Source of the DNA: a bacterium
GTDB taxonomy: Bacteria > CBDUZB01 > JAGLHV01
DNA length: 35,308 nucleotides
Assembly (NCBI GenBank): GCA_023132075.1
Contig: JAGLYT010000001.1
Location: 1 to 35,308, forward strand
Direction of reading: 5' to 3'
The notes under the pieces are model-generated. The model was not told where the DNA came from. It saw only the letters and a list, made by a program, of their open reading frames with translations, and ran no database searches. A program made the position numbers and the translations under genes. Shown in pieces: positions 2-20,400 of the stretch; the first letter of the stretch is position 1, and each line of letters starts with the position of its first letter.

Positions 2-2407
2 TTGATTAAAAAACTCAGCGATAAAAATATTGTAGGAGACTTTCCTTCAGAGATGGCTGTTATCGAGGGGAAATTAGCAGTTATTGATGATGGAGTGAAG
101 ATTTCTAGTGATGCTTTTATCAGGATTATAGATCCTGAGATAGAAAAACCAATGAGTAAGGGTAAGTTAGTTAAGGAACTCAAAGAGTCGAATATTTTCG
201 GAATACGTTTCGCTCGTGACATTGGAGTTATCAATGGTTATCTTGCTCTTTCTAATTTTGCATCTCCTCTTGGTGCTGCTTCCATCAGTATTATTGACCC
301 TGAGATAGATAAACCAACGAGTCCGGGTAGGTTTATTAAGAATCTTGATAATATAGATTTGCAGTTATCAAAAGGGACTTTAGATATTACCGTAGTTGAT
401 GGGAACATTGCTGCTGTGAATTATTATGGCGATTTTATCAGTATTATTGATCCTGAGATAGACAGACCAAATAGTCCGGGTAGATTAGTTAATAAAATGG
501 ATGATGTGAGTTTGGGGTTGTCAAGAACTCGCAGTATTATTGTTACTCGCGGCGGCAAGCTTGTTGTTTATAATTCTGATAATAGTTCTCTTAGTGTTAT
601 TGAATTTGAGGATACGGTTAAGAAAGTTTCCAAAGATTATACGAAGGTAAAAGAAGCAAGAATTCTTCAGTTGCGTGGGGGGGATGAACCAGCGGTTTTT
701 TCAACAGTTCTTCCAAATGGTAATCTTGCTCTAATTAATAGCGAAGAAAATTGGATTAAAATAATTAGTGGCAGTTCTTCCTCAAAGTTTGATGATAACA
801 GTTTAGGATTAAATAAGCCTTTAGGTGCCACCGTGATTAATGGCAATCTTGCTATTTGTAACTCCGGAGATAACTCCATCAGTATTATTGATTCAGATAC
901 AGGTCAATTAGTTAAAAAAATCAAGGATAAGAGTTTAAGGTTAAAGGTTCCTTTTGGCACAACTGTCTTTGATGGAAAATTAGTTGTTTCGAATGCAGGA
1001 AATGGTTCTATCTGTATTATTGACCCTGATACAGAAAAATTAGTTAAAGAAATTAAATTGGGAAGGGGAGAGGTTTTTGGTATTGATGTCATTGATGGAA
1101 ATTTTGCGGTTTGTATTCCAAACGATAACGCTGTAATCATTGTTAATCCTGACACCGGCAAAATAATTGATGAATTTAATAATACTAGTCTGGGATTTTT
1201 GGATAGTAATAACTTAGCATTAAAATGGCCGTTTGACCTAACTGTGGTAGATGGAATAATCGCTGTTTCTAATCAAACCGATGATTCTATCAGTTTTATT
1301 GATCCGACAGTTAGGGGAGGCAGATTGATTGCAAAACATAAAGTTAAGGTACGTAAAGTTGATGTAGATGGTGATTCCTACGAAGTAAGAATGGAAGGGC
1401 CCATGGGCATTACTGGTGCCAATAATAATATCGTTGTTTGTGGTCGATATTTAGTTAGTATGATCGAATTTGAGGATAAGGTTAAGAAAGTTCCGGAAGA
1501 TTATACGAAGGTAAAAAAAGTAAGAATTTTTAAGGACGGTTTAAGGCTAAGTAATCCAGGTTCTTCAACAATTTTACCGGATGGCAATATCGCTATTTCT
1601 AACTATTGGAATCATTCCATCAGCATCATTAATCCTGATAGCGGAAAATTAATTAAGAATTTTAAGGTTGGAACATGGGGATTAAAACAAAACATTCGTA
1701 TTACTGCTATCAAAGGCTTCCTTGCTCTTTCCAGCCATATTGATCAGTCCATCACAATTATTGACCCTGAGATAGATAAACCAACGAGTCCGGGAAAATT
1801 GATTAAAAAACTCAGCGATAAAAGTATTGTAGGGGACTTTCCTTTAGAGATGGCCGTTATCGAAGGGAAATTAGCAGTTATTGATCTTGGTGGAGCGAAT
1901 AGACATACCTCTATTAAAATCATCGATCCTGAGATAGATAAACCAGCGAGTCAGGGAAAGTTAATTAAGGACCTCAAAGAAGAGAATATTTCTGGAATAT
2001 CTTTAGTTAGTTGTATGGATGTCATCGATGGTTATCTTGCTATTGCTGATTATGGAGTTTCTATTAGTGATGATGGTTTCATCGGTATTATTGATCCTGA
2101 GATAGACAAACCCGCGAGTCCGGGTAGGTTAATTAAGAATATTAATAAGAGACATGTAGGCTTAATAGATGGGACTAGAGATATTACCGTTATTAATGGC
2201 AACATTGCTAATACAAATTATCGTAATAACTCTATTAGCTTTATTGATCCTGAGCTAGACAGACCAGATAGTCCAGGTAGATTAGTTAATGAGTTTAATG
2301 ATGATAGATTTGGGTCTAACGACATTGTTGCTGCTACTCATAGCGGTAAGCTTGTTGTTTGTGATTTTGATAATAATTCCCCCCTTACTGTTATTGAATT
2401 TGAGGAT
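2..2407 (+). repeat. YVTN/YncE-type beta-propeller blade array (a dozen or more blades)
   Basis: A blade signature recurs: DG-x-(L/F)-A-(V/I)-x-N-x3-(N/D)-S-I-S-I-I-D-P-D-T-x-K-L-(I/V)-K. Examples are NGNLAICNSGDNSISIIDSDTGQLVKKI (839-922), DGKLVVSNAGNGSICIIDPDTEKLVKEI and DGNFAVCIPNDNAVIIVNPDTGKIIDEF. A variant connector, IIDPEIDKPxSPG(R/K)LIK, occurs 7 times. Three lobes each end in (V/M)IEFED (596-613, 1460-1477, 2390-2407). Confidence 0.7.
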
Positions 2408-5400
2408 GTGGAGGGTAAACGAGGAAGGGTTTTCAAAGAAAAATCAAAAATCATTAAGCACCGAATTAAAAAAGCTCAGGATTTTATAAAAGAAAACAGT
2501 CTGTTTTTTAATGACCATCCGGAACTTCGTAAAAATTATTTATCTAATTTGTTTTATTTGCCCGAAGATTTAAAAAATATTGAGCAAGAAGAAATAAATG
2601 TTTTTATGGCTTTTCTGGATTATAATTTACTAAATCTTCTTGATGAGGCTGCGGTTGAAAAACTTCACAGTCAAATAGCAGAAAGAAATGTGAGGGATTT
2701 AAAGAGGTTCTTTTCCTTATTTGCTAAAATAAATACAAGTTTTTTAAATCAAGCATCTTTTATTGAGTTATTCGAAAGATGGAATAAGTTATTTATCCGT
2801 ATGAATAATTCTAAAATGGAAGAAGCATCGGATATTTTTTATAAGTCACTTGATTCGTATAGTAATTTTTTAACCCCAGAGTTTAAACCGGATGAAATTG
2901 AGGAAGATTTCCTGAAGTTGAGTTTATTATATTTAAGGGGAGATATTAAGGACATTCTTGATATTGAAAAGCAGGTGGTTATCAAGGGTGAGGTTGTTTG
3001 TGAATTAAAAAATGTGCCTTTAGCTCAGATTAATATTGTTTTCAATAAATTTCCTGATAAAACTAAGGAGTTAAGTCAGCTTAAAGATTACCAGGAGCTT
3101 TTAGATAAGGGTAAAGATGAGGATTTAGAAGATGCGGATGGAGATATTCAGAAGTCTATTTATGGACAGGATAAATCAGAAAATCTTTGCATACGGGAAA
3201 ATGTACAGAATGCCCGTAATGCCATTATAATAGAGCGACAGGCGTGGGCATTGCTTAAAAAGTATTATGAACAAAACAAAAAGGATTTTTCGGTAGATGA
3301 AAACAAATTAGATCGTTTTCTTTTTCAGGAAGAAGTTGAAGTTAAAGATAATGCCCGGGAGCATTTAAAACGAAGGATTTTTATTTTAGATAATATAGTA
3401 AAGGGATTATTAAAAAAATCAACTCAATCGCGAGGGAAGATTATAGGAAATCTCTTAAAAGAACTTGAAAAGGCACAAATTGAGATACGTAACTATATTC
3501 CTGAAGGGACAAACGAGTGGGTATTTAGTGTAGAAGATCCGGTGGGGATGGAACTTCCTACGATGACGGGTCCTTTATTGGTAATAGACGAAACAACCAA
3601 TTTGGGTAGTGCTATATCAGAAGGTATTTTTGGGCTTGGATTTTATACGAATTTTGCTGATTTTGATGAAGTAAAGGTTACTACAGGAGTAGGTGACGGC
3701 AAATTTTTTAAACTTACTATTAAAAAAGATAATGACGGCCGGTTAGTAATAACAAGTTTTAAACAATGTAATGGTGATTACAAAGGGACGAGGGTTGAAC
3801 GGGTCAAACATTTTCTTGAAGGTCAGATGCCGGACATTGATGCCATATTTGTTGATTATAGTATTTACCGTTATGTTGCTGCTATCCGGGATGTAAATAT
3901 TATTTATAAGGGTAAAATAATTAATGAAAATTTAAATCTTTTAGGAGAAGTTACTACTCTCTATGGAACAATTAAACTTTATGAAAACGATTCTAAGTAC
4001 CAGCGATTGACCCGAAGTTTTCTTTATGTGGAATATCCCAAATCAGAAGAATATTTCGCTCTTGTACCTGCGCACTTTTTAGAGATTATTTGTCAAAGAG
4101 GATTTACCATAGATTTGCCTCGCGGAATATCTTTAATTATATCCCGTCTTACCATTGATTATAAAGAGAAATATCTACCTATAGTTCAGCAGGCGGTAGC
4201 TGGAGCCTGTTTACAGGCAATAGTAAAATTGTATTATGAAGGAGGAGTTTTTCCACCGGGTTTATCCGAGGATTACTTTAGAGATGAGTATAATTTGGAT
4301 GGAAGAGGTGTTTTTGAAGGGGTTGGAGAAGATGCTGAAAATATCAATGAAAGCCGTATTGACGAGGTTGAATTTAGCCATTATATAATTGATGATAAAG
4401 AGGATAGCGATAAGGATAAAGAAATTAAAAATCGTTCTCTTAAATATCTAATTACCTTAATTGAAATAAAAGATAAAGATGGTGAAAAATTTTCGTTAAG
4501 AGGGAAGAAAGAAGAAATGTTTAAGGTTTTGAGAGAAGGGATGGAAGATCCCCAAAAGATTATAAAAGAACTTAATTTGGAAGATAGTTCCATTGGGTTT
4601 AGAACATACATTGAAAAAAATATTGAAGCAATAAGTGACAATATTGTTACAGAAAAGAATCTCAGAAAAGATTACACTCAAGAAGAAGTTGAAAACTCAA
4701 AGCCGATGAGAGATTTTAAGATGTTTACCGAGATTTTACTAAAATATATGGGTAAGGGACACATTAAAGTCAATTTTTATGAAAAGAGGGAAAAAAGATT
4801 AGCTGATTTTGAACCAAATTTAATTATTTGGAATCTTTATCATGTGAGAACATACATAGAAGAATTACAGAAAATAATTAACAAAGAAAAGGATGATGAC
4901 CCTGAAGCTCTATATCGTTTCTTCCGGAAAATATTGGATGATGTTACCCATGAGAGTGTACATTTTTATGATAAAGGTAAAGCATCTCATGAAAGTGCTG
5001 AAGAATTGGTTGGTTTGTTTGCCTGGATGCAAAAAAAACTAATTCGCGATTATGTAAGGGGTGAAAAAAACTGGGATGCTGTAATTAAGGAGTTGAAAGA
5101 GAAGACCGGGCAAGAATTTCAGGATGAAATGGATAGAGAAGCAAGAGGGATAGATGCGGAAGGAGAAACAAGTTTAGTAGAACACAAGGGAGCTGTAAGT
5201 ACCCCTGTTATGGTTTTAGGTGTATTAGGGTTATTTGTTAGTATATATGCCGTTGTCTTAGGTTCATTGTGGGGAATATGGATATTAGGTTTAGAAGTAG
5301 GGATATTATTATTAAGATGGATAATAAAATCAGGAGGAACAAGGGCTGGTCCTGATATAAGTTTTGAAGGTGAAGAAGGAGAAATTAGTAAAGACAATGT

Positions 5401-8400
5401 AAGTTTCTTAAAGCATTTAGGTGTCATTAATCCAAATTCACGAAGAAATAACCCGTTTAAAAAATTTCTAAGAATCGATCCAAAAGAAATAAAGAGTCGT
5501 TTAATAATAGAAGAAATACTCGCCATAAAAGTAGAACAAACCACTAAAAAAGCAAAAATTCCGCATAATATTGAAACATATAAGCAAAATTTACTATTCG
5601 TAACCAAATGGCTAAAAGCGATAGGTTTAGAAGAATTGGATGCTGATTATTTTACTAATTATTTATTTATGAAACAGGATAAGCTGAATAAAGCAGGACC
5701 CATTTATAATTTGTGTAATGAAGCAGCAAATATTTACGAGGTTATTAGCGGTGAGAGGGTTAGGATACCGGCAAAAACAGAAATAAGTAATATTTTATCA
5801 CAAGAGAAAAAAGCAGAATACCGCAGGCAAAATATCGCAGTTATAAAAACATTGTTAAGCAGATACAGAAAATTAAGATTGATTGAACAAGAAATAAAAA
5901 TTAAGTTTAGTCACTTTATTATTAATATGCATCCTAAAGGATTGATAAGCAATGCAAAGATTAGACTTCAACTATATCAGCTAGAGCAATTATATAAAAC
6001 AATTGAATCAAGGAAAAAGAAGAGTTTTATAGAGAAGATATTATCTATATTTTCTTTTAAATCCAAAAAAGAAGAGGCGACGGAAGTTAAATCTAACTTT
6101 TCCAGAGATAAATTATTAAAAATAATATCAAAACAGATCAGGTTAGAAAAGAAGATGAGGCTCATACCGGTTATTCCTTCCGTTACTGTAAAACGCAAAT
6201 CTGTTATAGGCTATTTATTCAGCCTAAGTATAGTTGGATTATTGTTTGGCAGTATATTTTCTGCTTTACCGATTGCATTGGGAGAAAAAATGCAGGATGT
6301 AATACCGGCAAAGACGATAGATAAAGATGGCAAAGTGATAATAAAAACAAAAGAAGATATGGAAAAGATAGTTGGGGAAGATATCGAGATGCTTTCTTTA
6401 GAAAACATTTCTGTGTTTAGCCCACAGGAAGATGCAAATGTTAGCTGGTATTTAGAGCAGACAGAAGAAATAGATAATGATTTGCAATTATTGATAGTAG
6501 GAAACAATTTTGATTTAATAGAAAACCTGCAAAATGAGAAATTCAGGAATAATTTAGATAAGTACATAATACCTTGTTTGTCGGGATTGGATAAAGAAGT
6601 ACAGATTTATGTAATTGATAATCTAAAATTGTCTAATTGGGTTAAGAGCAAGAATATAGAAGTATTAAGCAATGAAACAATCCCTTCTATAAAAGAAGAT
6701 AAAGGAAAGATTATTTTACCGGAAGAGTGGGTAGCAACATTGGGAGAAGGTGTAGATGAAAGCAATTTCTTAGAGAAAGCAGCTAAAGAAAAAGAAATTA
6801 CCAAAAAACAAGGACTTTTTAAAGGAGATTTTGCAACTCTGACTAATAAGTTAAAAGGATTAATTGATGAAATAGTAAATAAAAATGCTTTTGTTGCCTC
6901 AGCTGCTTCGGCAGAAGGGGTTTATATTGAAGTAATTGTGAATGCAACGATTGAAGATAGTATTAATGCTTCATTAGCTCAATACAAAACTGATTTGGAA
7001 AATGAAGGATATATAGTTACTATTGTTAATGATAATAATCTTAAGACTCCACAGCAAGTAAGGGAATATCTAATAGAAAGATATAATGCCGGGAAATTAA
7101 ACGGAGCTGTATTTGTAGGAGATTTACCAATTGCAGAAGCTATCCTGGTAAATGTTGCGGATACTTATGATTTAACTGAGCTTTTGGATTTCAGAGATGA
7201 GATAAATGAGTTAATTGAACAATATGAAGGAAATTATATCCAGGATGTTGAAGAATATATAGAATTATTTAGAAAATTCTATTTTTATCAACAAACTTTA
7301 ACTGAGGAAGAATGGACATCAATGGATTCATTAAATATGAAAATAGATGTTATTTTGGATAAAGAAAATGATTTTGAAGAAACTTTAATCAGGGAAGTTA
7401 GAAGTGGTGAGATTAAGGCATTTTTAGACGAAGGCAATGAGTTTGAAGATTTATTTCCCAAATCTTATTCTGAAGAAAAGAAAAAAGAGCTAATTGTGTC
7501 GATACAAACTAATTATTATGAATCATTTCCTTTTGATTTTTATTTTATGGATCTGAATAGAAAATGGGAAGATGTGGATAATGATGGTGTAATTAATATT
7601 TTACCCGGGGAAAGTAAAATTAATGATTTGGAAATATATATAGGCAGAATAGATGGTAAACCTTTTGCGTATGATGAAGTGAATGGTGAGTTTGTTTTTA
7701 ATCTTACTAAGGAAGCAGAAATATTAAAATATTATTTTAAGAAAAATAATGACTGGCGAACCGGTAATTTTTCTGCTTGGATGACTGATGCTCCTTATGA
7801 CAACAGCTCTTTGGTTTTTATAGATAATGAATTTGTGGAACAGCTTGGAAGAGGGTATAGATATAGAACTGGTTTAACTTTTGATAATAAGACCTTTATT
7901 AGTAATCCTGATCAAATGACTGCTCAGAGTTATTTAGAGTATCTTAAAAAATATTATTTATGGGTATTTTTAACTAGTCATTCAACTCCAACAACACATA
8001 GTTTTTTTAATATAAGCAGTTTAAATAACGAAAATTTTAGTAGCTGGGAAATAACTAATGCTAAACCACCTTTTTATTGGTTGGCTGCTTGTTCAGCTGC
8101 TGATTATAGAAAAATAAATTATATTGCCGGTTATTACCTTTTTGCAGAAAATAACATGGGATTAGTAGCTATGGGCAGTACCAGAGTCACAAATATAGAT
8201 GTAGCTACTTCGGATGGTTTTCATGAAAGCTTAGAAAGAGAAGATAATTTTGGAGAAGCACTTCAAAATTGGGTGGAAATTAGGGGAAGTATAGAAAATC
8301 CTGATAGGGCAGGATGGACCATTGTCGGAGATCCTACTTTAAAGCCGTTTCCTTCGGCAAATGAGACAACCTTTTTTAATCTTTTACCTAATTATGTTCC

Positions 8401-11400
8401 TTTTGTTGATTCTTTAAGAGGGAATTTGTCTTTTGACCAAGATTGTAATACTACTTTCCATTCCAAACCTGCTTCAATGAAAATTGAATATAAACCGGAA
8501 ATTCATAAAGATGTGCAGGAAGTAGAACCAAATCCGGAATCTATTGTATGGATCAATTATGATAGCTATAATTTAAACGGAGCGACAAAATTAACCTTTT
8601 GGGCAAAGGGGGAAAAAGGAGGAGAGCGTGCTTATTTTGGGATGGGGGATATAGACTCTGGTGATTCGTCTGAAATAAGTACAAATTTTATTAAACTTAC
8701 TAATGAGTGGCAAAAGCATACAATTGATTTAGAAGGCAAAGATTTAAGTAAAATTGAAATGGGTTTTTATCTTATAGTTTTTAACGATGAAAACCCTGAA
8801 GGTTGTGTGTTTTATTTGGATGATATCAAATACGAAAAAGACCCTGAAGTAGAAAAAGAAAAAAGCATTCCCGGATTGGGTGTTTTAGGTCCCCTTTTTG
8901 CATTGTTTTTTGGGAGATATATGCGTAATATTTTTAAGAGAAGACAAAAGATGCCAAAAATAAAAATTGCTCACTGGCGAGCGGCAGAATTAAATAAAGA
9001 TAATAAGCATTGTGGATATTTGAGTAAAACGATAGATAGTAAGAAATTTTTTTCTGAAAGTATGGAGCGAGAAGGAAAGGTTGTTAGGGGGATAAAGAAG
9101 GAAATTAATAAGTTACCAAAAGATAAGAAGACAGAGATTAATATTGATATGTCAGGTAAAAAAATTACATTAATCTTAACTAATGAGGATATTAAATTTT
9201 TGGAAGGAGAAAAAATAAATATTACTGCTTCTGAGGGGAATCTTCTGAGTCTTCTAAGCAAAGCATTAGCTCTGGAGAAAGAGGTTTATAAAAATACGGA
9301 TTATAATAAATTAAATGAAAAAATTATATTATCCTTGCTTGACCGGTCCCGCCATTTATCAGAAGATTGTTATAAGAACAGCTTTATAGGAATAAATAAA
9401 TCTATTCTTGAAATAAAAAATGAAAAAATAAGAAATATAGTTTTTATAATAGCTTTTATGCATGAGTTAAGGCATGAAGCAACCGGAAAAAATGATGATG
9501 TTTTTAAAGAAGAACAATTAGAAAAAGATGTTGTTCTTACCCTTAATCTGTTAAAAGAAGAAAATATTTTATTAAATGATTTTATTGGAGCGTTGGAACC
9601 GTTGATAAAAAAATCAGAGTATTTAAGCTTTTTAAATGACCTTCTTCCCGAATTTAAAAAATATAAAAGAGAACGAATTATAAAAAACACAGATACTTTT
9701 AATAAGGAAAAAATTATCAAAATAATAAAAGGGATAGAAAATACTATAAATGAAAATCCTTATGTTAGTTTTACCGTTGGTGGTAAAGAATTAACAGTGA
9801 AATTAAAAAAAGATAAGTGGAGAATACTGGAGAGATTTATTGAACGTTTTGTTTTCCCATCAATGGATGATGTAAACGATTTCCCGGAATTATTACAGAT
9901 TAAGAGTGATGAATTGCGGCCGGATGTATATATGCCTGATGATGGATCTTTTGGAACAATATTTTTAAAAGTAATGATAGTATCTAAAGTCCCTGTATTG
10001 ATGTTCGTAGAAATTCAATCAACCCCGAAATTTAGAATAATGAAACCTGTAAGTAAAAGGAAGGAATACAGTGTGTGGAAGATAAAAGTGATTGAAAAAT
10101 TTATCAAAGCTGCAGAGGAGCAAGGTGTCAAGACTTTTTATGCTTCAACGACTAAAGTAGTAAAAGATTATTATAAAGGTAAAGGATGGATTAGTAACGA
10201 TAATCTAAAGAATGATTATAACCGCGTATTTAATAAAGATAAAAATTGGAATAAAAAAGAAGTTTATGTCTTTGATCATTTTGATGATGAGATAATGAAA
10301 AGAATGGAAGTATGGTCTTATCAGGACATGAAAGAAGAAAAAATTGTTCCTGGCCACAAAGAGATTAGTATTTTTTCAGCAATGACTATAGGCAGTATAA
10401 TAGCATCATTTACCGGTTTTATCCCTGTTGTCAGTGCGGCACCGGAGGTGGCTACGGCTGGTTTTGGGATATCGTTGTTAGGAATGAATTTATCGGGGAT
10501 ATTTGCTGTTTTTATGTTAACATTGATGCCTTTTATGTCTTTTATTTCAATAAGAGCGCGGCAGGCAGTAGAATTAGATAAAGATGTTTTTGAAAGAGAT
10601 AAAAGAAAAATAAGGGGAAAAGTATTAGAGGAGATGCCAAATATAAAAACATTATATTCGCGATTCAATACTCTTGCTGAACCGGAAAAAGAACTTTTAA
10701 GAAAAGAATTCTATAAAATTGGTAGTGGACACTTTACTTTGTGGAGATTAACTAAACAAACAAATAAAAATTTAAGTCCTTATTTTCATGGCAGTTATAA
10801 AGATGCTTTAATAGTTAGTTTTCCGAATCTTGATTTAGAAAGATTAGGATTTGGCTATGAATGGGATACTAAAGAAAAAGGAATAGCGAGTGTCCAATAT
10901 GCCATAAGAAAAGAAAGGCCGGATTTATGGGATAAATGCCAGCGATTTGATAATCTTCTTGAAGCAGAAAAAGAAATTTTAAGACAGAAATTCTATAGAA
11001 TTACTACTGCACATTTTATTGTGTGGAAAATAAACAGCGCAAAGAACCAAAGTATTACTCCTTATTTTACTGGGAGATATTTAGATGCTTTGATAATCAG
11101 CTTCCCGAAACTCGGGTTAACGGTGGCTGAAAAAGAAGAATATATGAAAAAATATCCAAAGGAGAAGAAATTTACTTGGAAAGATAAAGGAGAAGGTATA
11201 TTTAATATTCGGCGTACTATTCAAAAACAAAGGCCGGATTTATGGAGAGGATATCAGCAATTTAATATTCTTACTGAACGAGAAAAAGAACTTTTAAGAT
11301 GGATGTTCTATAAAATTAGTAGCGGACATTTTGCCATATGGGGATTAAGAACAGCAATTAATAAGAAAACAAATACTTATTTTCATAGGAGTTATAAAAA

Positions 11401-14400
11401 TGCTTTAATAATCAGCTTCCCGGAACTTGAATTAGAAAGATTAGGATTTTTTGGCTATGATTGGACTACTAAAGAAAAAGGAATAGAGAGTATCCAGTAT
11501 GCCATAAGAAAAGAAAGACCTGATTTATGGAAGGTATACGAGAAATTAGGTAGTCTTACTGAACCAGAAAAAGAACTTTTGAAAAATAAATTTTATGAAA
11601 TCACCTATGCACATTTTGATCTATGGGAAATACACGGAGCAAAAGAAATAGAAATAGCACCTTATTTTAATGGCAGTTATAAAGATGCTTTAATAATTAG
11701 TTTTCCGAATCTTGATTTAGAAAGATACGGCTTTGGCTATGATTGGACTACTAAAGAAAAAGGAATAGAGAGTGTCCAATATGCCATAAGAAAAGAAAGA
11801 CCTGATTTGTGGGAGCAATACGAGAGGTTACATAGTCTTAGAGAACCAAAAAAAGAACTTTTAAGAAAAGAATTCTATGAAATTAGTCCCGGACAGCTTA
11901 AGATATGGCAAGTAGGGGGAGCAATGAATAAAAGAGTAGCTCGTTATTTTAATGGTAATTATATGGATGCTTTAATAATCAGCTTTCGGAAACTTGGGTT
12001 AGAAAGGGAAGGGTTTAACCGTAAGCTTATTTCAGGAGTACTAACTAAAAGAGAAAATGAATTATTTGAAGCAAGGAGAGAAGAAATAATCAATGACCCA
12101 ATGGGTCCTTTTGGCATTTTTGGGGATGAGGAAGCACGGCAATTTACTCATGATTTAATAGCCTTTTATTATAAAAAAAGAGGAATAGATGAAAGAATAA
12201 TTGATGATATAATGGATGAAATAGATGAAAATATTTCTGATTCCGAATCTGTTGTTGCAGGAATTTATGAAAACATAAATCTGGATGAAATTGTAAAAGA
12301 ATATAATAGTGACGATTATAGATTGAAAGAAGATCCGGAATTAAAAATAGAGATAGTAGGTAAAGATGTAGATGTAGAAAGGCCTATAGTAGTAGATGTT
12401 GGCTGTGGAAAAAATAATTTGTTGCCTGTTATTGTGAAGAAAAATCCAGGTATAGAAAAAGCTATTGGTACGGATGAAATAGATTATCATATAGAATCAG
12501 AAGATAATAGAGTAGAGTTTAGAAAACAACCTACACCATCTAAAATTCCTGTTGAAAATGGTGAGGCAGATAGAGTGATAATGTCTCTTGTATTACATCA
12601 TGCTACAGATGAAGTAATTAGAAATTTATTGAGAGAGTCTTCAAGAATTTTAAACCCTGATGGGAAATTAATAATCTTGGAAAATACATTTGCCGGAGGA
12701 GCTATTAAACCAAAATATAATAATGAGCTAAGTAAGCGTTTTTCAGAATTAAATGAAGAGCAAAAAGATAAGGTTTTCCGGTTTATAGAGTGGTATAGTG
12801 CAAGGTTGATAAGTAATATAAAAGAAATGCAGTTTGCTTATAATTGGAAGAGTATGGAAGAATGGAAAGAAATATTTGAGGAGGCAGGATTTACAATAGA
12901 AAAAGAAAATTTTCTTGGTATAGTTGATTTACCCTTTACTCCTAAATTGCCGTTGGGAGTTTTTGTCTTGAGGAAAGATGATTTTATCACTCAGAAGGAA
13001 AAAGTTAAGGAAAAAATAAAGGAGACTATAAAGTTTTTAAGTTTAATTAAAAAGGGGAATTGGGAAATAGATAAAGATATTTTAGATATAGATATTAAAC
13101 GGTTAAAAGAACAAAACAAGCAATTAAATAAGGGGCTGGTAAACTTAAAAGGTTTGTCAGAAATAAACGGTAAATTGAATGAAATAAAAGAAGAGACGGA
13201 AGAAAGAATTAAGGACAAAGCGATGCATAACTTAAGTATCTTAACAGAAATAAAAGAGTATAATGATATTATTAAATTGCTTTGTGATAAAGAGAAGGTA
13301 ATGACAAGGTTGGAGTTGGCAATATTAATTAAAATAATAAAGAATGAGAAAGAAATTTTTAGGCAAATGATTGATAAGGAAAAAGACCATGGAAAAATTA
13401 TTGCTATTCATATAGAAAGCATAGAATGGATGAGAAAGAAGGGTTTAACAAATAGAGAAATAGGTAAAATTATAATCTCTTGGCCAGCTGTTTTTTCATA
13501 TGGGAAAGAGAGATTTAACAGGGGAGAAATTAATTTTAAAAATGTAGGCATATTGGAAGAGGGAATTATCGATATTTTAAAGTCCTTTCCTTCATATTTT
13601 GCCTTGGATTCAGTTGTTCAGAAACAGAAAATAGAATGTATTAACTATGTAGAAACAAAAATAGGGGAAAAAATAAATCTGGTAGAATTTATAAACAAAT
13701 ATCCTCTATGGTTTAGTTATAGTGTAGAAAATAAAATTAAACCGACTTTAGATTTATTTATGAAAATACGTGATAAAAATAATGAGTGGACAGATATTTT
13801 TATGAGATTGTTAGCTTGTAATTTGGCAGTAACTAAATTAATTGTAAAAATAATGGGAGAAGAAAATACAAAAAAAATAGATGCAAAAAGAGTTTTAAAT
13901 GTTTACACTAAGTTAGATGTAAAAATTAAAAGCGATAAAAAAATCAAATTTAAGAAGTTAGATTTAGATAAGAATAAAGATACAGGAGAACATTTAAGGA
14001 CGGAAATAATTCAGATATTAAAAGATGAAGAAGACAAATATAAATCAAAAATGGTTAAAGAGCTTGAGGTTGTTTTTGAGGGGCTTATTAATGGTGATGT
14101 CCAAATTAATTGTGATGGTAAGGAAAAATTTAATACAGAATGGGGATGGGTTGATCTTGGGGAATTAAATAATTTTGAGGATTATATATCAGATAAAGGC
14201 AGACAGGCAGTTTTTTATCTGGTAAGGGATCTATATTTTGCAAAAGAGAAGGGATATATAGAGCTGAAGGGAGTACAAACTATTAGTATGCAAAACGTTT
14301 ATAAAGCATTACCCGATGGAATCAAAAAAAAGACTAATGCTAAATCTCAGGCACTATCATGTGCTAAATTTTTTGAAGCAAAACGTTTAATCGAACCTTA

Positions 14401-17400
14401 TCAAGGTAAATATAATGAAGAATACAAATATAATGAAGGACAAATTAAATTAGCCAGAGAATTAGGAGTAAATACTATTTCGTCTTTATATAGAGCTTTT
14501 GGTGATAAAGAATTTATTGAATGGAGTGGTTGGACTTATCCCTCCTATAATTTAAGAGAGTTGGATAAAGCTGATATTTTAGAAGAAAAAAAGTATAGTT
14601 TGTTGAAGGTTACTGATAAAGAAATATTAAATGTTTTTGTAGAAAAGTTGGACCAGGGTAAAACTTTTCTTACATCAGGAGAAGTGAGAGAAAAGTTTAA
14701 ATTAAAAGGGAAAGCTTCAAGGTTTCTTTCTTCCTTATTATCGGCAGGATATATTGAGAGAATCGGCAAAAGTCAAAAAACTGTGTATAAATTAGTTAAT
14801 CCTTATAAAATAAGGAGTTTGGTTTTAGAATTTAAAAAGCCGGTAGAAAAAGTAAGAGAGTCATGGAAAAATCTTTCTGCGGAAGAGAAAGGGCAGTTAG
14901 TGCTTATAAAGGAATTAACAGATTCTTTAAATTCGTCGGATGTGAATAATAAACAGATCGCTGAAAAATTAGGTATAAATCCGGATAACACAGCAAAGGG
15001 AGTGAAGAAGTTTACAGAATTGCAATTAATGATACATAGGAAAAGAGCTGATTATTCGTTATCAGAAGATACAAGATATTCAATATTAAAATATGAAGAA
15101 GAGATAATAAAAAATTATAATAATCTTTCCCAAAACAATAAGGATAAATTTAATTTACTTATGGATAAAATAAGGAAAGTTGAGACAGAAGGAAGGAAAG
15201 CCAGGGCAGAAGATTTTGAGAATATATTAGGCAGGGATAGATTTAGAAAAAAATTGAACCGATTAGGTTTTGTTAAACAAGGATTAATCTTAAAACCTAC
15301 GAGTAATACCTACACAATATCTCGTTGTTTGATTGATCATATTATTGCCCAAAGAGATGAAATTGTTGGGAAAGATGGATTAGTAAAAGGAAAAACAGGC
15401 AGAATAGGGCTGTTACCAAGAGTGACGATAATTTTAGGGTTATTTTCAGGATTTATTAGTACAGCTTCTGCCCAGCCGGATGTAGTAACTAATATAACTG
15501 CTGCAGGATTATCGCTTTTGGAAATGAATTTGCCTGGGGTGGTTGTGGTAGGGTTAGTAGGTGTGTTATTGTTGGGTTGGTTAGTAAAAGCTATAGGTAC
15601 AAGAGCCGGGCCGGTAGTTGATAAATTAATTAATAATTTTATCCGGAATAATCCGCTGACAGCATTTCTTGTCTTAGCAGTAATTCCTCGTAAAAAGGCC
15701 AGCCCGAAAGATTTCCAGAGTCAGCAAAAAACTATGAAAGAAATAGTGCTAGAAAAATTAAAAGATTTTTGGAATGAAGGCAGTATCCAGTGGAATCAAG
15801 ATGAAATTGAATGTAAAAAAATACCGTTTTTGGAAAATAACGAATTTTTAGTTTTATATAATCCGGTTAGAGATACAAGTGCTCGTTTATTGCATAAGTC
15901 TGGATGTAAAATGTGCAGGTTGTCTTCAGAAAGGTTAATTTTAGATTTGCAGAAAGAATGGAAAAAAGCAGCAAAAATATTTAATAATAAACGACCCTAT
16001 CTTTCCTATAAGCAGATTCTATATGTCCCTAATGACCACAGTACAAAGTTACCTCCGGAGTATATTGAATATGTAATTGGTCTGACTTCTCTTTTGGGGT
16101 TCAAAGGACATACAAATCTTAAGGGTGCTGGGGCAAGTTCTCCGGAACATTTACATTCTCATCTTTATGATATAGATAAAGAGTTAATTGATGATAAAAA
16201 CTTACCTATAGAAAAAATGGAAAAGAGGGAGTTATTTTCCGATCGGGAGGGGGAGGTTCAGATATATGATTTGGTAAATTATCCGGCAGCTTGTTTCGTA
16301 ATAAAAAGTAAAAGTATATATAAGTTAGCTCAAAATGCCCATTATATTATTGAGCGAATCCGAGAAGCAGATATATCGCTGAATTTTTATTTTACCCTGG
16401 ACAAAATATATATTTTTCCGCGGAAAGAAGAAAAATATTCAGGGAAATTAATTGGTGCGTTAGAACTTGGTGGTGTTTTTATATGTGATTCGAAGGGAAT
16501 GTATGAGCAAATGGATAGTGAAAGTAAAATTATAGAGGTAATTGAAAATACTGTTAAATCAAAAGAGGAAATGGGCTTTTTGTATGAATTAATTAGTGCA
16601 AAAAATAAACAGGAGGAAAAAGGAACCATTGTTGGGGAAATAAAGCACAAGAAACATAAGTTATCCCCGGAGAAAAAGAAAAAATTTGTTTTCAATCACG
16701 AATGTTGGAAAATAACTCCTGCAGGGGCGTTGGAAGTATCCGATGTTTTACCTACAAGCCGTGTTGAGAAAGAAGGGATAAAGGTAGGGGCCGGAAAGAT
16801 ATATGATCCTGCTAAATCTTGTTTGATTATGGGTTCTCTTGATGAAAGAGAATCTATCCGGATAAAGAAATTTGATGACTTTATGGAATTAATAATTGTA
16901 GGCAGAAAAGAAGATGGAAATGTTATTACTGTTCTTGCTCACATTGCTTCCGAACGCGTTGGATTAACAATCCTATTTAATATTTATAAAGAAATACAAA
17001 AGAAAAAATTATCCGATTTAAAGATAATGGTAGTAGGAGCAAAAGAAAACATTGATATGGTTAATTTGTCTGCGGAATTTTTACTACAGGATTTTGAAGC
17101 CTTATTCGAGTTAATAATAAAGAGAAGAAGACATTTGGGAATTGAAATCGGAAAAAATCGTATTAAAGTCTCAGACGGTGATTATGAATCCAGGGTTATT
17201 GACCCGATAATTTCCTATGAAGAGGTTAAAGATTCATTTAGTATTGCAGATAGAACCCAAAGATTGGAACGGGCAGCGAAAGCATATAAAAAAGGAAAAG
17301 GTTTAGAATTATTTCAGGTATATGCTCAGTTGCTTAGAGCATATGCGCAGAGCAGGGATTTAACTAATTTATCCGATATTAAAATTGAAGAATTAAGTAA

Positions 17401-20400
17401 AGGAGATATTTTTAATAATGCCTGTTTAAAAATAGATTGTGCTGTGGATGTAAATAGAAAAATAATAGAAAAATTCGGGATGAGAATATCTAATGACGAT
17501 TATTTATTTGAGGAAGAAAACAATATAAAGTGGGAAACTGGGGAAGGGTTGAGGGAATTACTGCCTGCTCAAACAAAGATAGTAAATATTGAACAATTTA
17601 TAGAATCTTCAGAATTGATATTTGAAGGTAAGGTTCCTTTGAGTAATATAAGAATGATGATTGAACGATTACTTAGAGAGGATGTAGATATAATAATAAG
17701 AAGGTTGCTTGATGGAAACGAAGAGCTGATTTACGGTAAAGTAAAGGAAATAACTGAGCTTTACCCTGAAATTGGAAAGTATATAGGAAATGAAGATTTA
17801 ACCTTGTTGGAAATATATAAAAAATTGGCAAAAGATTCTGTAGATATTATAGATGAACAACAAAAGTGGGAGCAGGGTATAAAGACATATGCAGAAGAGA
17901 GAAATTTGAAGGCGGATAAAGTACATAAACAGTTAATTAAATCTTATGCGCAGAGTAAAGGATTAAACTTGTCTGACAGCAACATTGAAGAACTAAGCAA
18001 ACGAACTATAAAAAATGCTTTTACCAGGATTGATTCTACTGTAGATTTAAAAGATACAGTTATGGATAAATTTGGAATAGAAATGAATGATGAGCAATGT
18101 TTGAATATAGAAGAACGAAATACAAAATGGAAGGAAATGACAGATGAAGAATTAGTGCAGAAAGTAATATTGTTACATCCACAGGGAGAGATAAAGAATA
18201 CTGAACAATTCATAGAATATTCAGGATTGATATTTGAGGGGAAGGTTTCTAAAGAAGATGTGAGAGAGGTAATCAATAAGTTACTTAAGGAAGAGGAAGA
18301 GATAACTTATGAAAAAGTAAAGGATATAATTGCTTTTTCTCTGAAAGAGAAAGAGAAAGAGATAGAGAAGATAAAAAAAGATGAAGAACATAGACAGTTA
18401 ATTAAATCATATGTACAAAGTAAAGGATTAAACTTTTCTGACAGCAAAATTGAAGCACTAAGCAAACGAACTATTAAAAATGCCTTTGGCAGGATTGATT
18501 CTACTGCGGATTTAAAAGATACAGTTATGAATAAATTTGGAATAGAAATGAATGACGATAGATGTTTAAGTATAGAAGAACGAAATACAAAATGGAAGGA
18601 TATGACAGATGGAGAATTAGTGCAGAAAGTAACATTATTGCATCAACAGGGAAAGATAAAGAATACGGAACAATTTATAGAATCATCAGGATTGATATTT
18701 GAGGGGAAGGTTTCTAAAGAAGATGTGAGAGAAGTGATTAATAGATTAATCGCTGAGCAGGAAGACCTGACTTATGAGAAATTAAAGGATGTAATTGATC
18801 TTTATCCGGAAATTAGGGAATATATGGGAAATGAAGATTTAACCTTGTTTGAAATATATAATATATTAATTAAATCATATGCGGAAAAACAGGGTTTGGA
18901 ATTATCAATAGATACAATTGAGCCATTAAGGAGATATTATTCCGTTGATAATTTTTATAGAAAAATAGATTATGCGGTAGAATTAAAAAAGATAACAGAG
19001 GAAAGATTTGGGATAGAAGTAACGGACAATTATTGTTTATCTATAGCGGGAGATATAGGGGATAAAAAATGGCGGGAATTTAAAGAGAAAACAGATGAAC
19101 AATTAAATCAATGGCTGGCAGGTAATATGTTTCATTATCAAGCTGAAATAACTGAGATTGAGCAATTTGCCGGAGCTTTATCAAAAGTATCGGAAATTAT
19201 ATTCGGTGAGGAGATATCGGAAAATGAAATAAAGAAAATAATTAAAAAAGTGCAACAGAGTAAATTAAAACTGGTTTATGGAAATGTTAGTAAAGTAATT
19301 ATTCTTTATCCTAAAATCAAAAATTATGTAGAAAAGGAAGGCAAAGAGCAGAACTTGAAATTGTCAGATACTAAGATTATGGGTTTAATTCATAAATACA
19401 GTGAAAGGAATATTTATAAAATAATAAATGCTGCTATAGATTTAAAAAAGACAATAATGGAAAAATTCGGAATGGAAATATTAGATAGTTACTGTTTAGA
19501 ACGGGTAAGAGACAAAACGGATTGGAAAAAGCAGGAAAATACAAAATTAGACAAATGGCTGGTTAATGAAGTTTTACATAAACGGGCTAAGATAATAGAT
19601 ATTAAACAATTCATAGAAGCTTCGGAATTGTTACTTGAGGGGAAAGTTTCCCGGGAAGATATGAGGGAAATAATTAATAAGTTAGTTGCTGAGAGAGAAG
19701 GTTTAACTTATGGAAAGATAAATGAAGTAGTCAGTCTTTACCCGGAAATTGGAAAATATATAAAAAAGAAAGATTTAAGTTTATTTGAGATATATGAGAT
19801 ATTAATTAAATCATATGCGGAAAAGCGGGCTTTAATTTTAACCGATAAAAAAACAAAAGAATTAGGTAAGAGCTATATTGTCCCTAAAGCCTGTGAAAAA
19901 ATAGATTTTGCTGTAAAATTAAGAACAATAGCGGAACAAAGGTTTGGATTAGAAATGTTTGATAGTTACTGTTTGTTTACAGTAATGCACAATACGGAAT
20001 TGGAAAAATGGCCGGAAAAAATGACTGAGGATGAATTGGATAGGTGGTTTTTTCAAAAAGGAGTACATGCACAGGCTAAAATAGTGAATGTTGAACAGTT
20101 TGCCGGAGCTTTATCCGGAGTATCAGAAGTTATACTGGGTAAAAAAACATCGGAAGTTAAAATAAAAAAAGTAATTGAGCAATTGAGTAAAGAAGGGCAG
20201 GAGCTTACCTTTGGAGAAGTAAAGAAAATGTTAATGGAGAAAAAGCTAAAAACAGGAAATAGAATTTTAAAAACAGTATTATTGACGATAACAGGATTAG
20301 TGGTTTTATCCTGTGGTTTTATTCCCCTTGCAAGTGCGGCACCGGGTATAGTGACTACTGCAATCGAAGTATCAATGTCGGGAGTAGGTTTTTCGGGGAT

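What the first reader, a model, noticed from the sequence alone, without database searches (positions are those of the whole stretch)
6203..8945. A single predicted extracytoplasmic loop carries a gingipain-like peptidase plus a CBM-like module: a candidate surface effector part
Seen: a lone TM helix (6203-6286) has a basic N-flank (KKMR...KRKS). A lone TM helix (8867-8925) is followed by RYMRNIFKRRQK. Together they bracket about 860 aa. That stretch contains C25-like blocks (VFVGDLPIA, FDFYFMD...IYIGRIDGKP, His 7979, Cys 8090) and a jelly-roll-like module ending in FYLDDIKYEK.

Known: the positive-inside rule then predicts that this loop is outside. C25/clan CD peptidases and CBMs are typically secreted or surface proteins.

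Inference: most other recognisable domains use cytoplasmic cofactors or DNA (ATP, SAM, nucleotides, wHTH). This loop may therefore be the only exposed catalytic or adhesive part in the window, consistent with a contact-dependent degradative role.

Caveat: the 41-residue hydrophobic stretch at 5204-5329 could be one or two helices. That choice flips the predicted side of everything upstream, including the YVTN propeller, which would be more at home outside.
Basis: partly seen in the sequence, partly recalled or inferred. Interest (0 to 1): 0.7.

Follow-up and report, generated by a model that had tools for sequence, protein, structure and literature searches.

The report
Exported gingipain-family peptidase loop in giant protein
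Inside one enormous membrane-threaded bacterial protein, an ~860-residue stretch bracketed by two membrane helices carries a divergent gingipain-family (C25) cysteine peptidase with its catalytic His/Cys intact plus a carbohydrate-binding-module-like beta-sandwich; this is a real but fairly ordinary new member of a large secreted-protease family, in an unusual double-tethered setting.

Summary
The whole 35,308-nt window is one stop-free ORF (11,769 aa, frame 2) that runs off both ends.

**Membrane bracket.** A strong TM helix (aa 2068-2095) and a weaker one (aa 2956-2974, followed by a +7 basic tail) enclose about 860 aa.

**Peptidase domain.** Residues 2295-2790 belong to a large family: 1,866 cluster representatives have E<=1e-3. 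Most members tested hit Pfam Peptidase_C25, and almost all look secreted.
- The AlphaFold model (pLDDT 81) has gingipain RgpB (1cvr) as its top Foldseek hit, E 9e-10.
- His2660 (nt 7979) and Cys2697 (nt 8090) are invariant in 152/152 relatives.
- They align with RgpB His211/Cys244 (hhalign probability 92%).
- A ~125-aa helical insertion splits the N-terminal subdomain.

**Binding-like module.** Residues ~2826-2946 form a beta-jelly-roll. The evidence is sub-threshold CBM30 and choice-of-anchor-J HMM hits, plus Foldseek matches that are mostly CBMs (on a low-confidence model).

**Topology.** Flank charges, crossing parity relative to conserved N-in/C-in hairpin modules, and the secreted nature of the homologues all place the loop on the trans side of the membrane.

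**Not shown.** Peptidase activity, glycan binding, true surface exposure (the loop would be periplasmic in a diderm), a contact-dependent role, and that this is the only exported part.

**Verdict.** New member of a known kind; moderate interest.

The parts
6155..6202 (+). Basic cytoplasmic flank before TM1 (KKMRLIPVIPSVTVKRKS)
   Evidence: Read directly. The 15 residues before the helix hold 4 K/R and no D/E.
6203..6286 (+). TM1, an internal signal-anchor-like helix (aa 2068-2095), predicted N-in/C-out
   Evidence: Kyte-Doolittle 2.16 and GES/TopPred-style 2.11. The hydrophobic run of ~27 residues is too long for a typical cleaved signal peptide (inference).
6287..6883 (+). N-terminal ~200 aa of the loop; acidic, no recognised domain
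   Evidence: No Pfam or NCBIfam hit. It is 74% identical to the relative P0002, with dN/dS 0.21. It sits where a protease prodomain would sit, but this was not tested.
6884..8353 (+). Divergent Peptidase C25 (gingipain-family, clan CD) domain, aa 2295-2784
   Evidence: Family profile search found 1,866 representatives. 31 of 40 members hit PF01364, several over the full length and above the cut-off. AF2 pLDDT 81.4, pTM 0.79. Foldseek top hit 1cvr, E 9e-10. hhalign against an RgpB/Kgp/PorU profile gives Prob 92%, E 5.9e-7.
7136..7516 (+). ~125-aa helical, acidic insertion splitting subdomain A, between VGDLPIA and FPFDFYFMD
   Evidence: Absent from P0001 and P0003-P0005, present in P0002. Predicted helical but with pLDDT <60. 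dN/dS 0.26 against P0002 DNA.
7565..7597 (+). DxDxDG-like acidic loop (WEDVDNDGVIN), conserved in the family
   Evidence: Family columns W228, D230, D232 and G235 are conserved at >=81%. A calcium-binding role is inference only.
7979..7981 (+). His2660, equivalent of the gingipain catalytic His211
   Evidence: 100% conserved in 152 relatives. Lies at the end of a predicted beta-strand. Aligned to RgpB His211.
8090..8092 (+). Cys2697, equivalent of the gingipain catalytic Cys244
   Evidence: 100% conserved in 152 relatives. Follows a predicted beta-strand. Aligned to RgpB Cys244, the Kgp catalytic Cys and the PorU Cys.
8477..8839 (+). Beta-jelly-roll, CBM-like / choice-of-anchor-J-like module (aa ~2826-2946), ending FYLDDIKYEK
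   Evidence: Pfam CBM30 E 6.8e-4, 20.1 bits against a cut-off of 27. NCBIfam choice_anch_J E 1.7e-4, 21.8 bits against 30. The single-sequence AF2 model is all-beta with pLDDT 52. Most of its Foldseek hits are CBM29/4/30/11/16 modules, E 1e-5 to 1e-3.
8867..8923 (+). TM2, a Gly/Pro-rich stop-transfer-like helix (aa 2956-2974), predicted N-out/C-in
   Evidence: GES/TopPred-style 1.47 but below 1.6 on Kyte-Doolittle. The N-flank holds 7 D/E and 3 K/R.
8915..8950 (+). Strongly basic cytoplasmic tail RYMRNIFKRRQK
   Evidence: Read directly. There are 7 K/R and 0 D/E in the 15 residues after TM2.

Best explanation
The region is a cassette shaped like a type-I membrane protein, embedded in a giant polytopic protein of more than 11,769 aa.

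An internal signal-anchor helix (TM1) starts Sec-type translocation of about 860 residues. A short Gly/Pro-rich helix with a very basic tail (TM2) stops translocation. The segment therefore sits on the trans (periplasmic or outer) face of the cytoplasmic membrane, tethered at both ends, while most of the giant protein, including its SAM methyltransferases, stays cytoplasmic.

The exported segment has three parts:
1. An uncharacterised acidic region of ~200 aa.
2. A divergent C25 (gingipain-family, clan CD) cysteine peptidase domain. It keeps the invariant His/Cys dyad and an acidic residue at the RgpB Glu152 position, and it is interrupted by a ~125-aa helical insertion.
3. A beta-jelly-roll module of the CBM30/CBM4/choice-of-anchor-J type, immediately before the anchor.

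The most likely function is a membrane-tethered endopeptidase that cuts envelope or foreign (prey) proteins within reach of the membrane, with the beta-sandwich holding it on a polymeric ligand.

Shown: the ORF, the helices and their charge bias, family membership, the fold, and dyad conservation and register. Inferred: the actual topology, catalytic activity, specificity, ligand and biological target.
For: - The window is a single stop-free ORF.
- TM scores and flank charges support both helices and their orientation.
- Hairpin modules are homologous and uniformly N-in/C-in, so TM1 needs exactly one partner crossing. TM2 is the best candidate.
- SAM methyltransferase domains lie in inter-hairpin segments.
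- The family has 1,866 representatives, and 31 of 40 members match PF01364.
- The family is overwhelmingly secreted.
- AF2 model pLDDT is 81 and Foldseek's top hit is 1cvr at E 9e-10.
- His2660 and Cys2697 are invariant and in register with RgpB His211/Cys244 and with the Kgp and PorU Cys.
- dN/dS is 0.26 against the one close relative.
- The same C25 plus choice-of-anchor-J-like pairing occurs in homologue P0004.
Against: - The window domain itself gets no Pfam C25 hit, even at E<=10, and no PDB sequence hit.
- The window copy departs from the family consensus at 21 of 80 well-conserved positions. These include G226R, D238N, H289N, T345M, G436T and Y447H in domain numbering. That could mean altered or lost activity.
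- The RgpB S1 residue Asp163 has no alignable equivalent.
- TM2 is only marginally hydrophobic.
- No dedicated topology predictor could be run.
- The CBM evidence is all sub-threshold or based on a pLDDT-52 model.
- The only close relative (P0002) is a 446-aa fragment that ends before the His, so dyad conservation among true orthologues is unknown.
Confidence: 0.6

Rival explanations
1. Pseudo-protease or scaffold. The C25 fold is retained as a binding or structural module on the trans side. Catalysis has been lost or repurposed, and the helical insertion and beta-sandwich provide the real (adhesive) function.
For: The window copy differs from the family consensus at 21 of 80 strongly conserved positions, several of them >=90% conserved. 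A large insertion interrupts subdomain A. dN/dS after the insertion is the highest of the sub-regions, 0.39. There is no direct Pfam hit.
Against: The two residues that matter most, His and Cys, are kept, as is the acidic residue at the Glu152-equivalent position. The region is under purifying selection overall.
Confidence: 0.15
2. Processing enzyme rather than degradative effector. Like PorU, the C25-family sortase of the type IX secretion system, the domain trims or transpeptidates other exported segments. [quoted passage not shown]
For: PorU is a bona fide C25 member that aligns with the same profile. The giant ORF has repeated signal-peptide-like hairpins with AXA-like motifs, suggesting post-translational processing on the trans side. 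West-Roberts et al. propose cleavage of giant proteins into pieces (10.1101/2023.11.21.568195).
Against: There is no specific similarity to PorU over RgpB. No CTD-type substrates or T9SS signals are visible in the window. The AXA motifs point to signal peptidase I, not to a clan CD enzyme.
Confidence: 0.12
3. The loop is cytoplasmic. Either TM2 (or TM1) is not a membrane helix, or the overall orientation is inverted, so the C25-like domain acts inside the cell in the manner of caspase-like CHAT/SAVED-CHAT proteases.
For: TM2 fails the 1.6 Kyte-Doolittle threshold. SAVED-CHAT and caspases, which are cytoplasmic, are among the structural neighbours. Published work notes that TM predictions on giant proteins are unreliable.
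Against: The charge bias at both helices is strong. The parity argument from the N-in/C-in hairpins applies. The sequence family is almost entirely signal-peptide-bearing, with extracellular partner domains. The closest structure is secreted gingipain, by five orders of magnitude in E-value.
Confidence: 0.08
4. The giant ORF is an assembly or gene-fusion artefact, and the cassette is really a separate small gene: signal peptide, then C25, then CBM, then a C-terminal anchor.
For: TM1, the domains and TM2 with its basic tail look just like a stand-alone anchored secreted protein. Family members carry C-terminal anchors such as PEP-CTERM. A Met follows the basic tail.
Against: There is no stop codon anywhere in 35.3 kb of frame 2, at 31% GC. 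No sorting-signal HMM matches TM2. GC skew and composition are uniform across the junctions.
Confidence: 0.03

Closest known systems
Gingipains RgpB/Kgp of Porphyromonas gingivalis (MEROPS family C25, clan CD; PDB 1cvr, 4ief, 4tkx)
   Same: The two-subdomain alpha/beta catalytic fold is shared (Foldseek E 9e-10, TM 0.50/0.57). Shared motifs include VGD..IPA, E(V/I)(F/Y)IGR, H-G/S after a beta-strand, P-F-x4-A-C-x3-D-[FY], and W-T-(V/I)-x-G-D-P-(S/T)-L. The His/Cys dyad and the Glu152-equivalent acidic residue are in register. The location is extracytoplasmic.
   Different: Identity is about 11-17%. There is no direct Pfam hit. A ~125-aa helical insertion sits in subdomain A. The Asp163 S1 loop is not alignable. 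There is no Ig-like domain or T9SS C-terminal domain. The domain is tethered by TM helices at both ends inside a giant protein instead of being secreted through T9SS.
The large uncharacterised C25-like family found here (e.g. P0001, P0005/P0154 from Candidatus Aegiribacteria, P0006, P0008)
   Same: Identity is 25-34% across the domain, with family E-values down to 1e-83. All signature motifs are present, including the invariant H and C. At least one member (P0004) also has a choice-of-anchor-J-like module after the peptidase.
   Different: Typical members are 335-2,000-aa secreted proteins. They have an N-terminal signal peptide and a T9SS CTD, dockerin, PKD, FlgD-Ig or PEP-CTERM. Among the relatives aligned in full (P0001, P0003-P0005), the insertion is seen only in the window copy and its 81%-identical fragment P0002; only the window copy is seen embedded in a giant ORF, since P0002 is too short a fragment to tell.
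PorU, the C25-family sortase of the type IX secretion system (PDB 6za2)
   Same: It belongs to the same family profile, and its catalytic His/Cys are in register. It acts on the trans side of the cytoplasmic membrane.
   Different: PorU is an outer-membrane-associated T9SS component. No T9SS context is visible here, and nothing suggests transpeptidase rather than hydrolase chemistry.
Giant 'Archaeovorin-type' / multi-enzyme membrane-threaded proteins of Omnitrophota (West-Roberts et al. 2023, 10.1101/2023.11.21.568195; 10.64898/2026.06.07.730766)
   Same: The ORF is longer than 10,000 aa. It has many TM helices, about 30 in 11.8 kaa, close to the roughly one per 370 residues quoted for the densest protein. 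It mixes methyltransferase and peptidase domains, and hydrolytic domains are proposed to lie outside the membrane.
   Different: The origin of this window is unknown. SecA-DEAD, C39 and S8 domains were not detected in the window, which is only a fragment of the gene. [quoted passage not shown]).
Beta-jelly-roll carbohydrate-binding modules (CBM30, CBM4, CBM11, CBM29) and NCBIfam 'choice-of-anchor J' domains
   Same: The fold is all-beta, and the structural neighbours are mostly CBMs, at 13-22% identity to CBM30 and CBM4-2. Weak HMM matches fall on the same ~95 residues. Its position directly before a membrane anchor is the hallmark of 'choice-of-anchor' domains (my knowledge of the NCBIfam naming).
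   Different: Both HMM scores are below the curated cut-offs. The model confidence is low (pLDDT 52). Ligand-binding residues were not examined. No glycoside hydrolase is attached.

Membership tests
Peptidase family C25 (Pfam PF01364 / MEROPS C25) | Direct significant match of the sequence to the PF01364 profile | tested here: not met
   window:6884-8371 gives no PF01364 hit even at E<=10. The whole loop gives none at E<=0.1. The ~125-aa insertion and divergence probably break the match.
Peptidase family C25 (Pfam PF01364 / MEROPS C25) | Homology to accepted C25 members through intermediate sequences or profiles | tested here: met
   A leave-one-out family HMM scores 259 bits on the window. 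31 of 40 family members hit PF01364, best E 9.4e-14. P0006, P0008, P0030, P0136 and P0145 match profile positions ~10-373 of 374 above the 23-bit cut-off. Family profile against an RgpB/Kgp/PorU profile gives Prob 92.2%, E 5.9e-7 over 302 columns.
Peptidase family C25 (Pfam PF01364 / MEROPS C25) | Gingipain catalytic-domain fold: two alpha/beta subdomains, the second caspase-like | tested here: met
   AF2 pLDDT 81.4, pTM 0.79. Foldseek PDB rank 1 is 1cvr at E 9.1e-10, followed by clan CD proteins: SAVED-CHAT, separase and caspases-1/-6/-11.
Peptidase family C25 (Pfam PF01364 / MEROPS C25) | Catalytic His and Cys in register with RgpB His211/Cys244 | tested here: met
   His2660 and Cys2697 are invariant in 152/152 relatives. 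They align to His211/Cys244. The RgpB sequence was verified against 4IEF_B.
Peptidase family C25 (Pfam PF01364 / MEROPS C25) | Peptidase activity with defined P1 specificity (S1 Asp163 in RgpB) | not testable with these tools
   The Asp163 loop of RgpB falls in an alignment gap. Activity needs biochemistry.
Gingipains proper (T9SS cargo) | C-terminal T9SS sorting domain (Por_Secre_tail) and Ig-like domain after the catalytic domain | tested here: not met
   No PF18962 or TIGR04183 hit in the loop or after it. Homologues P0001 and P0005 do have one.
CBM30 (Pfam PF21582) | Profile match above the gathering score | tested here: not met
   20.1 bits against a cut-off of 27, E 6.8e-4, covering profile positions 71-142 of 170.
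CBM30 / beta-jelly-roll CBM fold | Beta-sandwich jelly-roll structure similar to solved CBMs | tested here: inconclusive
   Foldseek hits are mostly CBMs (1wky, CBM29, CBM4-2, CBM30 2c24/1wzx, CBM11), at E 1e-5 to 1e-3 and TM 0.35-0.54. The query model has mean pLDDT of only 52.
NCBIfam choice-of-anchor J (NF038128) | Profile match above the curated cut-off | tested here: not met
   21.8 bits against a cut-off of 30, E 1.7e-4, profile positions 64-161 of 162. P0004 gives a similar sub-threshold hit.
Omnitrophota Archaeovorin-type giant proteins | Single ORF >10,000 aa with numerous TM helices and mixed methyltransferase/peptidase content | tested here: met
   11,769 stop-free codons, open at both ends. 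About 30 TM segments. Methyltransferase domains at aa 4108-4301 and 9837-9988. A C25 peptidase domain is present (this report).
Omnitrophota Archaeovorin-type giant proteins | SecA-DEAD domain and N-terminal C39/S8 peptidase | tested here: inconclusive
   Not detected by Pfam in the window. However, the window lacks both ends of the gene.
Omnitrophota Archaeovorin-type giant proteins | Encoded in an Omnitrophota genome | not testable with these tools
   The source contig was not found in genome contigs or metagenome contigs. The only close relative is an unclassified 'bacterium' MAG, GCA_023143305.1.

The most novel reading that the evidence does not exclude
The giant protein may be a membrane-threaded polyprotein. 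Its few exported cassettes would be its business end, and this double-tethered gingipain-family peptidase plus glycan-binding module would be the proteolytic tool that a predatory ultra-small bacterium uses on prey envelope proteins. Alternatively, it could mature the giant protein's own exported segments, next to signal-peptidase-like AXA sites in the recurrent hairpins. Either way it would be the first assignable catalytic activity on the trans side of such a giant protein, and a new membrane-embedded architecture for family C25.
Probability: 0.2. Interest if true: 0.6.

Novelty: new member of a known kind. Interest (0 to 1): 0.4.

Why it matters
Giant bacterial proteins of more than 10,000 aa are almost entirely uncharacterised, and their membrane topology is disputed. 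This loop gives a compact, expressible (~860 aa) and mutationally testable module: His2660/Cys2697, plus one beta-sandwich. Its side of the membrane and its activity can both be measured. That would anchor the topology of a long stretch of the protein, and it would test whether these proteins carry extracytoplasmic degradative functions.

The work also brings out a very large, essentially unstudied secreted branch of peptidase family C25 outside Bacteroidota, with 1,866 cluster representatives at 50% identity.

The domain family, the fold and the general idea that giant proteins expose hydrolases are all already known. The finding therefore refines existing knowledge rather than overturning it.

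Tried and rejected
- **Direct searches with the loop.** Pfam and PDB sequence searches found no C25 match. A family profile against PDB sequences found only chance hits. phmmer of member P0008 against PDB found nothing relevant.
- **Early hhalign attempts.** The family against a single RgpB sequence gave only the N-terminal 65 columns. With -glob the result was nonsense. A low-mact run gave the right register but Prob 5.6%. This was resolved by building a three-sequence RgpB/Kgp/PorU reference profile.
- **Word-indexed homologue searches.** They returned very few proteins. The exhaustive representative search was needed to see the family.
- **Source genome and orthologous giant genes.** Both searches failed. 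Genome contigs gave only a distant Deltaproteobacteria C25-like gene. Metagenome contigs gave nothing by peptide patterns or by an exact 41-mer. No paper mentions the related assembly.
- **TM2 as a fossil C-terminal sorting signal (PEP-CTERM/PGF-CTERM-like).** No HMM support was found, so it remains only a resemblance.
- **Homologues or paralogues of the CBM-like module.** None were found among the 159 fetched proteins (jackhmmer) or inside the window, so its structure had to be predicted from a single sequence.
- **Other segments.** Pfam on the second candidate exported segment and on the flanks of the loop gave nothing interpretable.

Full report
**1. What the window is**

The whole 35,308-nt window is one open reading frame. 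Frame 2 of the + strand has no stop codon in 11,769 codons. The other two + frames have 1,512 and 1,240 stops, and the three - frames have 357-876. That is why the mechanical ORF list shows only short - strand ORFs. The ORF runs off both ends of the window.

GC content is about 31%, with a strong positive GC skew throughout. So the finding concerns an internal piece of a giant protein (aa i = nt 2+3(i-1)).

Pfam recognises little in the window:
- SAM methyltransferase domains at aa 4108-4301 and aa 9837-9988.
- A weak PQQ/propeller-like match near the start.

**2. The observation**

TM1 (aa 2068-2095) is a strong hydrophobic segment: Kyte-Doolittle 2.16 and TopPred-style GES score 2.11.

TM2 (aa 2956-2974, IPGLGVLGPLFALFFGRYM) is weaker. 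It misses 1.6 on a 19-residue Kyte-Doolittle window but scores 1.47 on the GES/trapezoid scale. The scale and its 1.0 'certain' threshold are as I remember them from TopPred.

Flank charges are as follows.

| Helix | N-terminal flank | C-terminal flank |
|---|---|---|
| TM1 | 4 K/R, 0 D/E | 3 K, 4 D/E |
| TM2 | 3 K/R, 7 D/E | 7 K/R, 0 D/E |

**3. The peptidase-like domain**

*Finding the family.* The loop itself gets no C25 hit in Pfam or in PDB sequences. A word-indexed search found one homologue, P0001. It has a signal peptide, the homologous domain and a T9SS C-terminal domain.

An exhaustive profile search then revealed a large family: 1,866 cluster representatives at E<=1e-3, and 622 at E<=1e-30.

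*Link to Pfam C25.* Of 40 short members, 31 match Pfam Peptidase_C25. Several match nearly the whole profile, above the gathering score.

A family HMM built without the window sequence hits the giant ORF once, in two pieces (aa 2299-2379 and 2502-2789), with 259 bits. The gap between the pieces is a ~125-aa insertion. Among the relatives aligned in full, only the 81%-identical fragment P0002 shares it.

*Structure.* An AlphaFold2 model of aa 2295-2790 with a 40-sequence alignment has pLDDT 81.4 and pTM 0.79. The insertion is predicted helical but at low confidence.

Foldseek against the PDB ranks gingipain R (1cvr) first, at E 9.1e-10 and TM 0.50/0.57. Other clan CD proteases follow: SAVED-CHAT, separase and caspases.

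**4. The catalytic dyad**

In an alignment of 152 family domains, His2660 (nt 7979) and Cys2697 (nt 8090) are the only His and Cys conserved at 100%.

To test the register, I recalled the RgpB mature sequence and verified it as identical to PDB 4IEF_B over residues 1-348. I then took the Kgp and PorU alignments to RgpB from the PDB search and built a three-sequence reference profile.

hhalign of the family against that profile gives probability 92.2%, E 5.9e-7, over 302 aligned columns covering RgpB 7-347. The key equivalences are:
- His2660 aligns with His211.
- Cys2697 aligns with Cys244.
- Glu2610 aligns with Glu152.

Several motifs also coincide:
- VGD..IPA
- E(I/V)(Y/F)IGR
- PF....AC...D(Y/F)
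- WT(I/V).GDP(T/S)L

The loop carrying RgpB's S1 residue Asp163 has no counterpart, so specificity cannot be inferred.

The window copy is an outlier in its family. It differs from the consensus at 21 of 80 positions that are >=80% conserved.

Against the DNA of its one close relative, dN/dS is 0.26 overall. By sub-region it is 0.12 in subdomain A, 0.26 in the insertion and 0.39 after the insertion. That fragment ends before the His.

**5. The CBM-like module**

Residues ~2826-2946 give two independent sub-threshold HMM matches on the same stretch:
- Pfam CBM30: E 6.8e-4, 20.1 bits against a cut-off of 27.
- NCBIfam choice-of-anchor J: E 1.7e-4, 21.8 bits against a cut-off of 30.

No homologues could be collected, so the AF2 model is single-sequence and weak. 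It has pLDDT 52, with eight strands at pLDDT 55-79.

Even so, most of its Foldseek matches are beta-jelly-roll CBMs (CBM29, CBM4-2, CBM30, CBM11, CBM16), at E 1e-5 to 1e-3; enterovirus capsid jelly-rolls also appear lower in the list. One family member, P0004, carries a similar choice-of-anchor-J-like module after its C25 domain.

The fold assignment is reasonable. Carbohydrate binding is not shown.

**6. Topology**

No dedicated predictor was available, so three lines of evidence were used.

1. *Positive-inside rule.* The charge bias at TM1, and especially at TM2, fits an N-in/C-out then N-out/C-in arrangement.
2. *Parity.* The ORF contains homologous two-helix modules at aa 3455-3519, 5135-5201, 6754-6815 and 8889-8949.
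   - Each has 3-5 K/R before helix 1, none in the ~12-aa loop, and 3-6 after helix 2. They are N-in/C-in, which places the intervening segments, including the methyltransferases, in the cytoplasm.
   - Between two such modules an even number of crossings is needed. TM1 is unambiguous, and TM2 is the best partner. The alternative at aa 3326 scores 1.01 and contains two lysines.
3. *Nature of the family.* 131 of 143 Met-starting representatives have an N-terminal signal-like hydrophobic segment, and 139 of 153 have no other TM. Their partner domains are T9SS CTD, dockerin, PKD, FlgD-Ig, CHU_C and PEP-CTERM.

Together these make a trans-side location likely.

This favours two helices and hence no flip of the upstream part. 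The alignment is of low identity, and its N-flank is not basic, so this remains open.

**7. What is not supported**

- *'Surface'.* A loop tethered by two cytoplasmic-membrane helices is periplasmic in a diderm cell. The organism is unknown; the closest relative is an unclassified MAG.
- *'Only exposed part'.* A single helix at aa ~10219, followed by three helices at aa 11209-11266, could export aa 10231-11193. The charge evidence there is ambiguous, and no domain is recognised in that segment.
- *Activity, ligand and a contact-dependent role.* These remain inference.

**8. Comparison with what is known**

The setting matches the giant, TM-rich, multi-enzyme proteins described in Omnitrophota. 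Those proteins mix methyltransferases, peptidases and hydrolases. [quoted passage not shown] Their hydrolytic domains are proposed to face outward. Membership of that phylum could not be tested here.

Neither paper mentions C25 or gingipain in its main text, and the one supplementary file held (for the 2026 preprint) has no occurrence either.

The domain is a divergent member of a known family. The architecture is unusual for that family: internal, double-tethered and carrying an insertion. I rate it a new member of a known kind, of moderate interest.

Noticed in passing
window 1-35308, + strand frame 2: The entire window is one stop-free ORF of 11,769 codons, open at both ends. GC is ~31% and GC skew is strongly positive (0.23-0.44) throughout. 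It is a fragment of a giant gene of the kind reported in Omnitrophota.
   Followed up: partly
window 10364-10558, 15404-15604, 20261-20446, 26666-26848 (aa 3455-3519, 5135-5201, 6754-6815, 8889-8949): These are recurrent homologous two-helix modules. The first helix looks like a Sec signal peptide: a basic n-region, an h-region, then an AXA-like motif (VSA|AP, ASA|QP, ASA|AP, SSA|AS). A ~12-aa loop follows, then a second helix and a basic flank; two of the copies (aa 1733-1776 and aa 5135-5201) continue with 'GTRAGP'. They could be signal peptidase I sites that cut the giant polypeptide into separately anchored pieces. This is speculative.
   Followed up: partly
It aligns to both helices of the hairpin modules with the connecting loop deleted, and it is followed by KSGGTRAGP, like the aa 5135-5201 module. 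That favours a tight hairpin, but its N-flank is acidic rather than basic.
   Followed up: partly
window 30692-33580 (aa 10231-11193): This is a possible second long exported segment. It lies between a single TM helix (aa ~10209-10229) and a cluster of three helices (aa ~11199-11276). The charge evidence is ambiguous and no domain is recognised.
   Followed up: partly
window 2-2473 (aa 1-824): Roughly 300-aa internal repeats, 30-55% identical to one another, with a weak PQQ_2/BamB-like propeller match at aa 290-388.
   Followed up: no
window 10583-12025 (aa 3528-4008) and 17210-20221 (aa 5737-6740): Two arrays of tandem protein repeats. One has units of about 95 aa and the other about 155 aa, at 30-70% identity between units. 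No family is assigned to either.
   Followed up: no
window 21083-22588 vs 33803-35308 (aa 7028-7529 vs 11268-11769); 22535-24190 vs 27017-28468: Large internal duplications of ~500 aa at ~50% identity, and of ~480-550 aa at 28-46% identity. The giant gene appears to have grown partly by segmental duplication.
   Followed up: no
window 12323-12904 (aa 4108-4301) and 29510-29965 (aa 9837-9988): Two SAM-dependent methyltransferase domains. The first matches Methyltransf_23/11/25. The second matches the TrmB-like Methyltransf_4 at E 1e-12. Both lie in segments predicted to be cytoplasmic.
   Followed up: no
window 7565-7597 (aa 2522-2532): A DxDxDG-like acidic motif (WEDVDNDGVIN), conserved across the C25-like family (consensus W.D.D.DG.YD.H). 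It may be a calcium site.
   Followed up: no
window 6211-6567, - strand: A 118-aa ATG ORF on the opposite strand overlaps TM1 and the start of the loop. Given the uninterrupted 35-kb + strand ORF, it is almost certainly spurious.
   Followed up: no
L002 (GCA_023143305.1, contig JAGLHV010000365.1, 1,340 nt): This is the only close relative of the loop, at 81% aa identity and including the helical insertion. It sits on a tiny contig of an unclassified 'bacterium' MAG, so related giant genes are probably fragmented in public assemblies.
   Followed up: partly
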